64,000 nt of DNA from an uncultured Acidobacteriota bacterium (lineage in GTDB: Bacteria; Acidobacteriota; Thermoanaerobaculia; UBA5066; Gp7-AA6): positions 203,683 to 267,682 of the forward strand of contig CAWHTA010000011.1 of NCBI GenBank assembly GCA_963832145.1, read 5' to 3'. The notes beneath the pieces are model-generated. The model saw nothing but the letters and a program-made list of their open reading frames with translations. It did not search any database and was not told the origin of the DNA. The position numbers and the translations under genes were made by a program. Of this stretch, positions 8,301 through 8,365 are shown piece after piece (position 1 is the first letter of the stretch; the number at the start of each line of letters is the position of its first letter).

Positions 8301-8365
8301 TGTCATTCCGAGGAGCGAAGCGACGAGGAATACTGACCAGATCCCTCGCTTCGCTCGGGATGACA
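8301..8365. repeat. REP/MITE-like imperfect inverted repeat, copy A (sufB-sufC intergenic)
   Basis: TGTCATTCCGAGGAGCGAAGCGACGAGGAAT-actgaccag-ATCCCTCGCTTCGCTCGGGATGACA; same arms recur at 25481, 47741, 55002 and 34258. Confidence 0.7.

What the first reader, a model, noticed from the sequence alone, without database searches (positions are those of the whole stretch)
8301..8365. Family of REP/MITE-like imperfect-palindromic intergenic repeats (at least 5 copies)
Two related half-sites occur as inverted pairs separated by 9-45 nt: long form TGTCATTCCGAGGAGCGAAGCGACGAGGAAT and short form TGTCATCCCGAGCGAAGCGAGGGAT. Copies are at 8301-8365, 25481-25565, 47741-47835, 55002-55077 and 34258-34296, with a possible degenerate copy near 38660-38790. 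They sit in short intergenic gaps inside operons (sufB/sufC, mmsA/ureidopropionase, M16/proC), and in one case next to a truncated gene. They leave readable peptide shadows (VIPRSEATRN, SLASLGMT) in several spurious ORFs. This is how REP-type mRNA-stabilising or non-autonomous mobile elements behave. No cognate transposase is in the window.
Basis: seen in the sequence. Interest (0 to 1): 0.7.

Follow-up and report, generated by a model that had tools for sequence, protein, structure and literature searches.

The report
TGTC-tagged hairpin repeats (Ssn-related motifs)
Short gaps between genes in this Acidobacteriota (Thermoanaerobaculia) genome carry paired copies of a hairpin-forming DNA repeat from an already described, cross-phylum family that small GIY-YIG "Ssn" nucleases recognise as single-stranded DNA, so the finding is real but of a known kind.

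Summary
Four loci (8301-8365, 25481-25565, 47739-47835, 55001-55077) carry eight clear TGTC/CGTC-tagged hairpin units, mostly as head-to-head long+short pairs. 34258-34297 is a marginal compact relative. None is expected by chance. The units have the anatomy of CGTC/TGTC-tagged REPs (Di Nocera 2013) and of the Ssn-related motifs, SRM/NTS (Chenal 2025): a tag, an AT-closed imperfect palindrome and a C after it. The stem covaries across hundreds of copies from other genomes and phages. This exact variant (GAGCGAAGCGA core with tandem G.A mismatches) brackets small GIY-YIG genes 48% identical to the NTS-flanked Neisseria gene. Tag density is 5.1/kb next to those genes and 0.23/kb further away. 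One orthologous site is filled in the window and one 93%-identical relative but empty in another, which indicates recent gain or loss. No Ssn gene lies in the window, and the rest of the genome could not be read. The published SRM search pattern misses this variant. The "degenerate copy" near 38.7 kb is a separate 175-nt palindromic insertion with a 5-bp target duplication. Verdict: new member of a known kind, modest interest.

The parts
8301..8365 (.). Copy A. Head-to-head heterodimer in the sufB-sufC gap: long unit 8301-8331(+), 9-nt spacer, short unit 8341-8365(-).
   Evidence: CM hits of 18.6 and 47.4 bits. As RNA it folds at -35.7 kcal/mol, z -4.7.
25451..25462 (+). Partial duplicated head CTGTCATTCCGA, 18 nt upstream of copy B.
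   Evidence: Similar tandem partial heads precede units next to ssn-like genes in L178 and L268.
25481..25565 (.). Copy B. Head-to-head heterodimer in the aldehyde dehydrogenase / CN-hydrolase gap. Its arms are identical to those of copy A, with a 29-nt self-complementary spacer.
   Evidence: CM hits of 29.0 and 47.7 bits. RNA fold -53.7 kcal/mol, z -7.7.
34258..34297 (+). Copy E. Compact variant: head TGTCATCCCGAGC, then GCTCGGGACAGGCTTC, with a 7-bp stem. It forms the last ~23 codons of the Mo-hydroxylase large-subunit ORF 32142-34328.
   Evidence: CM only 11.3 bits, E 1.1. DNA fold -10.3 kcal/mol, z -3.3. Shares the 11-mer GGACAGGCTYC.
47739..47835 (.). Copy C. Composite in the M16-proC gap: head 47739-47749(+), reversed compact unit 47746-47770(-), long unit 47798-47835(-).
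   Evidence: CM hits of 23.7 and 27.5 bits. The orthologous site is filled in L098 and empty in L099.
55001..55077 (.). Copy D. Head-to-head heterodimer: short unit 55001-55029(+), long unit 55043-55077(-). It abuts a frameshifted ~28-codon gene remnant (54927-55000) and lies 8 nt from the stop of a minus-strand ORF.
   Evidence: CM hits of 40.3 and 26.3 bits.
38653..38827 (.). 175-nt long palindrome with GGAG(S)CTGTCC termini, flanked by the direct repeat TCAGG (38648-38652 and 38828-38832). It is inserted between the stop of ORF 38828-39163(-) and the uricase ATG (38648-38646). Probably a related subfamily, not a standard unit.
   Evidence: DNA fold -58.8 kcal/mol, z -5.75. Precisely absent in L099, L101, L102, L103 and L159. 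Shares GGACAGGCTYC with copies C and E. No other copy found in the held data.

Best explanation
The repeats are members of the CGTC/TGTC-tagged REP superfamily. More precisely, they are Ssn-related motifs (SRM, NTS-like).

Each unit has four parts:
- an unpaired 5' tag (T/C)GTC;
- an AT-closed imperfect palindrome AT-YYY-GA-GC-GAA-GC-GA-RRR-AT, or the same with 3 extra nt on each side in the long form;
- two conserved G.A mismatches within that palindrome;
- a C just after the palindrome.

In most copies, units sit as head-to-head long+short pairs with the tags outside. This is the same arrangement that brackets ssn genes elsewhere, so the window copies look like gene-less, non-autonomous versions of SRM-ssn-SRM.

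Inferred mechanism, taken from the Neisseria work: when the DNA is single-stranded (replication, transformation, conjugation, ssDNA phage), each strand extrudes one correctly oriented hairpin. A ~95-115 aa GIY-YIG Ssn nuclease encoded elsewhere in the genome binds it sequence-specifically and nicks a few nt 5' of the tag. This modulates recombination of ssDNA and probably drives the spread or turnover of the repeats. Any effect as an RNA hairpin inside the operons would be secondary.

Shown here: the anatomy, the covariation, the Ssn-gene association of this variant in other genomes, and gain/loss between close relatives. Inferred: that an Ssn exists and acts in this organism, and that it mobilises the repeats.
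For: Anatomy and chance.

Literature:
- PMC3733652 describes CGTC REPs. The tag is often TGTC, stems are 8-9 bp beginning with AT, head-to-head dimers predominate and are often heterodimers, and there is no RAYT association.
- PMC11893778 gives NTS = CGTCATTCCCGCGMAVGCGGGAATCYRG. SsnA binds it only as ssDNA and cuts upstream of it. The C after the palindrome is the base most critical for binding.

Family-wide covariation among 165 distinct units:
- ATTCT/AGAAT 62, ATCCT/AGGAT 30, ATTCC/GGAAT 9, ATCCC/GGGAT 8, ATGCT/AGCAT 7, ACCCT/AGGGT 3.
- C follows the palindrome in 138 of 165.
- 96.2% of cells are paired, and 32 cells show double changes against 8.8+/-3.1 in shuffles (0 of 500 shuffles reach this).

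Association with ssn-like genes:
- The variant flanks GIY-YIG genes in L081, L178, L179 and L180.
- In the 80 metagenome loci, 51 of 73 have a forward tag upstream (modal position -41), and 36 of 62 are tagged on both sides.
- Tag density there is 5.09/kb near the gene versus 0.23/kb more than 1 kb away.
- A Planktothrix plasmid shows the same long+short heterodimers around its ssn-like gene.
- The GIY-YIG protein is 48% identical over 91% of its length to an unannotated 85-aa reading frame in N. gonorrhoeae. That frame is flanked by six exact NTS matches, so I take it to be ssnA.

Turnover:
- Copies A and B have identical arms.
- The M16-proC site is filled in the window and L098 and empty in L099.
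- Density is patchy among relatives.

Ssn homologs exist in Acidobacteriota (Ca. Acidoferrum).
Against: - No Ssn homolog is in the 64-kb window or in 80 related genome loci (HMM search). The source genome is not in the look-up collection, so a cognate nuclease in this organism is unproven.
- No Thermoanaerobaculia Ssn was seen among named hits.
- The published degenerate SRM pattern gives 0 hits in the window. It fails at its two 'B' positions, which are the G.A mismatch columns.
- Single units are only marginally stable in nearest-neighbour models: -1.5 to -3.5 kcal/mol as DNA, z not significant.
- Mobilisation by Ssn has not been demonstrated for any member of the family.
Confidence: 0.65

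Rival explanations
1. Orphan or decaying SRM-type repeats. The lineage once had, or was visited by, an SRM-ssn element. The nuclease gene is now absent, and the copies persist only as passive hairpins.
For: No ssn in the window or in 80 related loci. Most Thermoanaerobaculia relatives have no units in ~10-20 kb. Copies C and E are rearranged or compact. One long arm lacks the C after the palindrome.
Against: Copies A and B have 31/31 and 25/25 identical arms 17 kb apart. One site is filled in a relative of 93% identity and empty in another, which implies recent activity or conversion. Chenal et al. report an Ssn homolog in 81% of genomes with more than 200 SRMs.
Confidence: 0.2
2. The primary role is at the RNA level. 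The long hairpins in polycistronic mRNAs act as REP-like stabilisers, processing sites or translational couplers between operon genes.
For: All clear copies lie in short gaps between or next to co-directional genes. The dimers fold strongly as RNA: -35 to -54 kcal/mol, z -3 to -7.7. G-U-compatible changes occur.
Against: The long/short order relative to transcription is not fixed (A and B versus D and L098). There is no T-run. The orthologous M16-proC junction in relative L099 lacks the element. The same motif occurs in phage and plasmid DNA of 34-71% GC and even in-frame inside a portal gene. SsnA does not bind RNA.
Confidence: 0.1
3. REP/REPIN mobilised by a RAYT (IS200-like Y1 transposase).
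For: The general architecture, inverted doublets of hairpin-forming REPs in intergenic DNA, is the same as for REPINs.
Against: The tag is TGTC/CGTC, not GTAG. E. coli RAYT finds nothing in the window. CGTC REPs are never found flanking RAYT genes. The units instead flank GIY-YIG genes.
Confidence: 0.03
4. Classical MITE derived from a DDE-transposase insertion sequence (terminal inverted repeats plus a target-site duplication).
For: The two arms look like terminal inverted repeats. The separate 175-nt palindrome at 38653-38827 does have a 5-bp direct repeat, TCAGG.
Against: No direct repeats flank copies A, B, C or D. Each arm is itself a covarying hairpin. No IS with such ends appears in the window or the related loci.
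Confidence: 0.02

Closest known systems
Ssn-related motifs (SRM) / Neisseria Transformation Sequence with the GIY-YIG ssDNA nuclease Ssn (cd10448); Chenal et al., Nat Commun 2025, PMC11893778
   Same: A 5' (H)GTC tag followed by AT. An imperfect palindrome of ~20-30 nt. A C immediately 3' of the palindrome and a YNB-type tail (ATCTGG here versus AATCYRG). Head-to-head units bracketing a ~95-115 aa single-domain GIY-YIG gene. Rarely inside genes.
   Different: The stem carries two conserved G.A mismatches around a GCGAAGC core. Because of this the published degenerate search pattern does not match. Long and short units pair as heterodimers. The host is Acidobacteriota (Thermoanaerobaculia), a phylum the main text of that paper does not mention. 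No ssn gene is seen in the window.
CGTC-tagged REP superfamily (Di Nocera, De Gregorio & Rocco, BMC Genomics 2013, PMC3733652), which includes Neisseria dRS3 and Rickettsia RPE-4/RPE-6
   Same: The tag is often TGTC. Stems of 8-9 positions begin with A-T and T-A. Loops are short. Head-to-head dimers predominate and are often heterodimers, with spacers of 1-100 nt that may be self-complementary. There is no RAYT association. Occasional intragenic, in-frame copies occur.
   Different: The described tail consensus is CCA, whereas here it is C(T/C)N. The mismatch-containing stem and the 3+3-nt 'long' form were not among the four families as far as the text shows (the figures are not held).
REPIN-RAYT systems (Bertels & Rainey 2011, PMC3116915)
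   Same: Works like it in outline: inverted doublets of REP hairpins, a non-autonomous population, and a single small nuclease or transposase gene bracketed by the same repeats.
   Different: The tag (GTAG) and the enzyme class (HUH Y1 transposase versus GIY-YIG) are different. REPIN-RAYT systems are described as vertically inherited and lineage-specific. This motif is nearly identical across phyla and in phage contigs.
IS200/IS605 'peel-and-paste' elements and their hairpin-ended derivatives
   Same: Recognition of subterminal ssDNA hairpins, strand-specific cleavage next to the hairpin, and no target-site duplication.
   Different: No TnpA (Y1) or TnpB is associated. The ends are two copies of the same hairpin in inverted orientation, not distinct left and right ends.

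Membership tests
SRM/NTS-Ssn (Chenal 2025) | Non-palindromic 5' tag HGTC followed by WY, which gives the unit an orientation | tested here: met
   TGTCAT or CGTCAT in 7 of 8 units. The compact unit 47746-47770 has TGTC without AT. Family-wide the upstream bases are ..TGTC.
SRM/NTS-Ssn (Chenal 2025) | Hairpin-forming semi-palindrome supported by sequence conservation and pairing | tested here: met
   96.2% of cells paired. 32 double-change cells versus 8.8 in shuffles, 0/500. Six Watson-Crick arm variants. Caveat: the units were collected with a fixed core.
SRM/NTS-Ssn (Chenal 2025) | Cytosine immediately 3' of the palindrome (the base most critical for SsnA binding) | tested here: met
   138 of 165 units family-wide. 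In the window C follows in all units except the long arm of copy A, which has A.
SRM/NTS-Ssn (Chenal 2025) | Match to the published degenerate search sequence HGTCWYN(0-2)YYVSBRHN(0-5)WNVSBRGN(0-2)RNCYNB | tested here: not met
   0 hits in the window, against a mean of 1.0 in simulations. By inspection only the two B positions fail, and these are the G.A mismatch columns.
SRM/NTS-Ssn (Chenal 2025) | The motif brackets genes of the Ssn (single-domain GIY-YIG) family | tested here: met
   Shown for this sequence variant in other genomes. L081, L178-L180. 51 of 73 loci tagged upstream and 36 of 62 on both sides. 5.09 versus 0.23 tags/kb. Planktothrix plasmid. The protein is 48% identical to an NTS-flanked Neisseria reading frame.
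SRM/NTS-Ssn (Chenal 2025) | An Ssn homolog encoded in the same genome | not testable with these tools
   None in the window. The source genome is not retrievable. The nearest evidence is Ssn homologs in another Acidobacteriota lineage.
SRM/NTS-Ssn (Chenal 2025) | Strand-specific binding and cleavage as ssDNA by the cognate Ssn | not testable with these tools
   Needs biochemistry.
CGTC-tagged REP superfamily (Di Nocera 2013) | Terminal CGTC/TGTC tag, a stem of 8-9 positions starting with complementary A-T and T-A, and a short loop | tested here: met
   compared with the description.
CGTC-tagged REP superfamily (Di Nocera 2013) | Predominantly head-to-head dimers (tags outside), often heterodimers | tested here: met
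   Copies A, B and D and the L098 copy are head-to-head long+short heterodimers. Copy C is rearranged.
CGTC-tagged REP superfamily (Di Nocera 2013) | 3-nt unpaired tail fitting CCA | tested here: not met
   The commonest tails are CTC, CTG, CCC, CTA and CTT. Only the first C is shared.
REP/REPIN-RAYT | GTAG-type tag at one end of the REP | tested here: not met
   The tag is TGTC/CGTC.
REP/REPIN-RAYT | A RAYT (Y1 transposase) gene flanked by the same REPs | tested here: not met
   No RAYT in the window: tblastn with E. coli RayT gives a best E of 5.8. The genome-wide status is unknown.
Classical MITE (DDE IS derivative) | Target-site duplication flanking the terminal inverted repeats | tested here: not met
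   No direct repeats at the borders of copies A, B, C or D. Only the separate 175-nt element has one, TCAGG.
Intrinsic terminator | GC-rich hairpin followed by a T-run | tested here: not met
   0 terminator-like sites at 8000-8700. No T-run follows any copy on either strand.
Rfam families | Score at or above a family's gathering threshold | tested here: not met
   Only a tRNA in the window. The best sub-threshold hits at copy A are chance-level.

The most novel reading that the evidence does not exclude
The head-to-head long+short dimers are gene-less, non-autonomous derivatives of SRM-ssn-SRM units, and they are actually moved by the GIY-YIG ssDNA nuclease. That would be a REPIN-like replicator driven by a non-HUH enzyme. 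The GAGCGAAGCGA / G.A-mismatch form would be a distinct specificity class, missed by the published SRM search pattern, that travels between phyla (Acidobacteriota, Cyanobacteriota and others) and through phage genomes.
Probability: 0.3. Interest if true: 0.65.

Novelty: new member of a known kind. Interest (0 to 1): 0.3.

Why it matters
The repeat family and its partner enzyme are already published, so the window adds no new principle. It does add three things.

- **A gap in the published search pattern.** A very widespread sequence variant, with tandem G.A mismatches around a GCGAAGC core, escapes the published SRM pattern. It nevertheless shows the defining association with ssn-type genes. 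Surveys based on that pattern probably under-count the family, particularly in soil phyla and phages.
- **Evidence of recent turnover.** A filled and an empty orthologous site were found in relatives of equal (93%) identity, and two copies 17 kb apart have identical arms. Both bear on the open question of whether SRMs are mobile.
- **An annotation issue.** The units create spurious ORFs and peptide shadows, a 23-residue C-terminal extension on a Mo-hydroxylase subunit, and a truncated gene next to one copy.

Tried and rejected
- **Rfam.** The gathering and E-value searches found no family.
- **Literature search for the raw half-site strings.** It returned only unrelated primers.
- **Neighbour-gene enrichment around the motif in 97 IMG/VR contigs.** Only shared phage genes turned up. 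A strict GIY-YIG regex found 1 locus of 98. That one locus, L081, was the lead to Ssn.
- **Retrieving the source contig by exact protein look-up.** It failed four times.
- **Looking for an Ssn from class Thermoanaerobaculia.** Two further protein searches and one cluster look-up gave Verrucomicrobiae, Ca. Acidoferrum and Gemmatimonadales names only.
- **NCBIfam and PDB sequence searches with the Ssn-like protein.** They gave nothing useful.
- **blastn of copy B against plasmids.** No match. A consensus TCT-type dimer did hit Planktothrix and Calothrix plasmids and one phage record.
- **Considered and rejected:** RAYT/REPIN, intrinsic terminator, a classical MITE with a target-site duplication, and a sixth copy at 20235.
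- **The repeat finder.** Its gapless extension missed the family apart from one short-arm group.

Full report

Yes. The long half-site occurs at 8301(+) and 25481(+) with no mismatch and at 55077(-) with one mismatch. The short half-site occurs at 8365(-) and 25565(-) with no mismatch. None was found in 100 dinucleotide-preserving shuffles.

Reading the five loci shows pairs with the TGTCAT ends outside. I built a covariance model from 38 units taken from the held loci and the window. With filters off it finds eight units in the window at E <= 0.012, in four loci, and nothing else convincing. The unit at 34266-34291 is marginal (11.3 bits, E 1.1). A head match at 20235 is a chance hit inside a nucleotidyl-transferase gene.

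Pfam confirms the neighbouring genes:
- SufB/SufC
- aldehyde dehydrogenase / CN-hydrolase
- M16 peptidase / ProC
- Mo-hydroxylase large subunit / 2Fe-2S small subunit

**2. Anatomy**

Written 5'->3' from the tag, the short unit is TGTC-AT-CCC-GA-GC-GAA-GC-GA-GGG-AT-C. It has five outer base pairs, two G.A mismatches, two G-C pairs and a GAA loop. The long unit has three extra positions on each side (GA-GGA-GC-GAA-GC-GAC-GA).

Copies A, B and D, and the copy in relative L098, are head-to-head long+short heterodimers with spacers of 9-29 nt. Copy C is rearranged: two units lie on the minus strand, plus an extra head. Copies A and B, 17 kb apart, have identical arms but different spacers.

Whole dimers fold strongly as RNA on either strand: -33 to -54 kcal/mol, z -2.8 to -7.7. 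Single units are only marginally stable in nearest-neighbour models: -1.5 to -3.5 kcal/mol as DNA, z not significant.

The pairing is instead supported by covariation among 165 distinct units sharing the GAGCGAAGCGA core:
- The outer arms are ATTCT/AGAAT (62), ATCCT/AGGAT (30), ATTCC/GGAAT (9), ATCCC/GGGAT (8), ATGCT/AGCAT (7) and ACCCT/AGGGT (3).
- The base after the palindrome is C in 138 of 165.

On a 38-sequence alignment, 96.2% of cells pair. There are 32 double-change cells against 8.8+/-3.1 in shuffles (0 of 500 shuffles reach this), and pairing collapses when the partner column is slid. Caveat: the units were collected with a fixed core, so only the outer stem is a fair test.

**3. Where else is it?**

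- The motif TGTCATYCYGA-N0-3-GCGAAGCGA is in 97 IMG/VR contigs of 37-71% GC, as single units and as head-to-head dimers.
- A consensus dimer hits plasmids of Planktothrix and Calothrix and one phage record.
- Rfam has nothing for it.
- The window itself comes from Acidobacteriota, class Thermoanaerobaculia. Its M16 peptidase is 93% identical to those of two Thermoanaerobaculia MAGs.

**4. What is it?**

Two papers describe the kind.

Di Nocera et al. 2013 (PMC3733652) define CGTC-tagged REPs:
- The tag is often TGTC.
- Stems are 8-9 bp and begin with AT.
- Loops are short.
- Head-to-head dimers predominate and are often heterodimers.
- There is no RAYT association.
- Neisseria dRS3 and Rickettsia RPE-4/6 are members.

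Chenal et al. 2025 (PMC11893778) show the following:
- The oriented Neisseria version is NTS = CGTCATTCCCGCGMAVGCGGGAATCYRG.
- The 94-aa GIY-YIG nuclease SsnA binds it only as ssDNA and cuts a few nt upstream.
- The C after the palindrome is the base most critical for binding.
- ssn genes across phyla are bracketed by such "Ssn-related motifs" (SRM).
- NTS/SsnA reduces integration of transforming DNA.

The window's short unit plus tail (TGTCATCCCGAGCGAAGCGAGGGATCTGG) has the same layout.

**5. Membership tests**

*The published pattern.* The published degenerate SRM pattern gives no hit in the window. By inspection only its two B positions fail, and these are the G.A mismatch columns. So the literal search definition is not met.

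*Association with ssn genes.* This defining biological feature is met for this sequence variant.
- In L081, a GIY-YIG ORF is bracketed by TGTCATTCTGAGCGAAGCGAAGAATC units.
- The same holds upstream of the gene in three further loci, and downstream in two of them (L178, L179, L180).
- Of the 80 metagenome loci encoding relatives of that protein, 51 of 73 have a forward tag within 300 nt upstream (modal position -41). 44 of 73 have a GCGAAGC core there. 36 of 62 are tagged on both sides.
- Tag density is 5.09/kb next to the gene against 0.23/kb more than 1 kb away.
- A Planktothrix agardhii plasmid shows arrays of long+short heterodimers on both sides of its annotated GIY-YIG gene.

*Protein family.* The protein belongs with SsnA. 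It is 48% identical over 91% of its length (E 6e-17) to an unannotated 85-aa reading frame in N. gonorrhoeae. That frame is flanked by six exact NTS matches within 1.6 kb, so I take it to be ssnA.

*RAYT.* E. coli RayT finds nothing in the window.

**6. This organism**

No Ssn homolog is in the window or in the 80 related genome loci, using an HMM built from 53 family members with positive controls at E of about 1e-52 to 1e-61. Exact-protein look-ups did not find the source contig.

Named Ssn homologs came from Verrucomicrobiae, Ca. Acidoferrum (Acidobacteriota) and Gemmatimonadales, not from Thermoanaerobaculia. That a cognate nuclease exists here is therefore inferred, not shown.

**7. Gain and loss**

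- The M16-proC gap carries a clean short+long dimer in L098. It shares the spacer CCCCTGCGTTTC with the window's copy C.
- L099, equally close to the window (93% M16 identity), has an unrelated 63-nt gap there.
- With the unit model, about 345 kb from 23 related loci contain units only in L098, L156 and one Terriglobales locus, L124.
- The window has eight units in 64 kb.

The family is therefore patchy and turns over within the class.

**8. Local consequences**

- Copy E supplies the last ~23 codons of the Mo-hydroxylase large-subunit ORF. Homology to solved CoxL-type proteins ends at ...PATPERIFEA, where those proteins have only 5-8 more residues.
- Copy D begins directly after a ~28-codon, frameshifted N-terminal remnant of a Rossmann-type gene (by reading).
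- Copy B is preceded by a duplicated 12-nt head. Similar tandem partial heads precede units beside ssn-like genes in L178 and L268.
- No copy has a T-run or flanking direct repeats.

**9. The "degenerate copy"**

38653-38827 is a 175-nt long palindrome (-58.8 kcal/mol as DNA, z -5.75). It is precisely absent from five relatives, in which the uricase ATG abuts or lies within about 20 nt of the stop codon of the upstream gene. It is flanked by TCAGG on both sides, and TCAGG is present once at the empty sites of L101 and L159.

Its termini, GGAG(S)CTGTCC, share the 11-mer GGACAGGCTYC with copies C and E: three occurrences against 0.13 expected. The unit model does not match it, and no other copy was found in the held data. 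I treat it as a related but distinct element.

**10. Mechanism and rivals**

Most likely, the units are ssDNA hairpin sites for an Ssn nuclease encoded elsewhere in the genome. The head-to-head dimers are then gene-less versions of SRM-ssn-SRM.

On each strand one unit of a dimer is in the recognised orientation. Cuts would therefore fall just outside the element, at the 5' side on both strands. This geometry is inferred from the Neisseria data. Whether the nuclease also spreads the repeats is an open hypothesis, which Chenal et al. raise in their Discussion.

Rivals:
- Orphan repeats without a nuclease. This cannot be excluded.
- A primary RNA role. The variable orientation and the empty orthologous M16-proC site argue against it.
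- RAYT-driven REPINs. The tag, the literature and the gene association are all against this.
- A classical MITE. There is no target duplication.

**11. Novelty**

This is a new member of a known family in a phylum not mentioned in the main text of the Ssn paper. One useful caveat is that the published search pattern misses this abundant variant. Interest is modest.

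Noticed in passing
window 38653-38827 (TCAGG at 38648-38652 and 38828-38832): A 175-nt long palindrome is inserted exactly between the stop codon of ORF 38828-39163(-) and the uricase start codon. It is absent from five relatives and has a 5-bp direct repeat. Its termini GGAG(S)CTGTCC resemble the tagged ends of copies C and E. No second copy was found.
   Followed up: yes
window 25451-25462; L268 about 380-700 and 1030-1100; L178 5380-5480: Tandem partial duplications of the 12-nt head (TGTCATYCYGAG plus 11-30 nt of flank) precede complete units, in the window and next to ssn-like genes elsewhere. 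They could be footprints of the process that copies the units.
   Followed up: partly
window 54927-55000: A ~28-codon remnant of a Rossmann-type gene (MRIGVLGAGTVGSTLA...; with a 1-nt frameshift it reads ...RKLASLGHE) ends exactly where copy D begins. A tRNA gene lies just upstream at 54723-54794(-).
   Followed up: partly
window 34258-34328: The Mo-hydroxylase large-subunit ORF reads through copy E, gaining about 23 element-encoded residues. Its stop codon overlaps the GTG start of the 2Fe-2S subunit gene (34325).
   Followed up: yes
window 50195-50370: An intergenic stretch holds a perfect 28-nt palindrome (50258-50285) nested in a 17-nt inverted repeat (50242-50258 / 50319-50335). Relatives have 92 to about 2400 nt of different sequence at this position.
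   Followed up: partly
window 27865-27930: An AT-rich 21-nt inverted repeat (AAGGGGACAGATTTATTTTTC / GATAAATAAATCCGTCCCCTT, 90% complementary) lies in a 68% GC genome.
   Followed up: no
L025 2959-5676 and 1311-1661: In a phage contig, a head-to-head dimer of the motif lies in-frame inside the 905-aa portal-like ORF (...VIPSEARNLS...RPRNDKT...). This resembles intragenic Rickettsia RPEs. A RAYT-like fragment (27% identical to E. coli RayT, E 5e-8) lies about 1.2 kb away.
   Followed up: partly
L268 (Planktothrix agardhii plasmid NZ_LR882964.1, 18150-19816): The ssn-like GIY-YIG gene and its repeat arrays sit between a type IIL MmeI restriction-modification gene and DISARM drmA, that is, inside a defence island.
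   Followed up: no
L081 10645-10675 and 11240-11275; L178, L180, L186 flanks: A second, unrelated hairpin repeat (GCACCCTT...AAGGGTGC type) repeatedly lies just outside the SRM-ssn-SRM units in several loci.
   Followed up: no
window 47729-48756 versus L101, L102, L103, L159, L165: proC lies between the M16 peptidase gene and the next conserved gene only in the window and L098-L100. More distant relatives join the two flanks with a gap of only about 60-130 nt.
   Followed up: no
protein cluster of P0127: Two near-identical Ssn-like proteins (HEV2197085.1 and HEV2197087.1) are encoded two genes apart on one Candidatus Acidoferrum contig. The gene can therefore be multi-copy in Acidobacteriota.
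   Followed up: no
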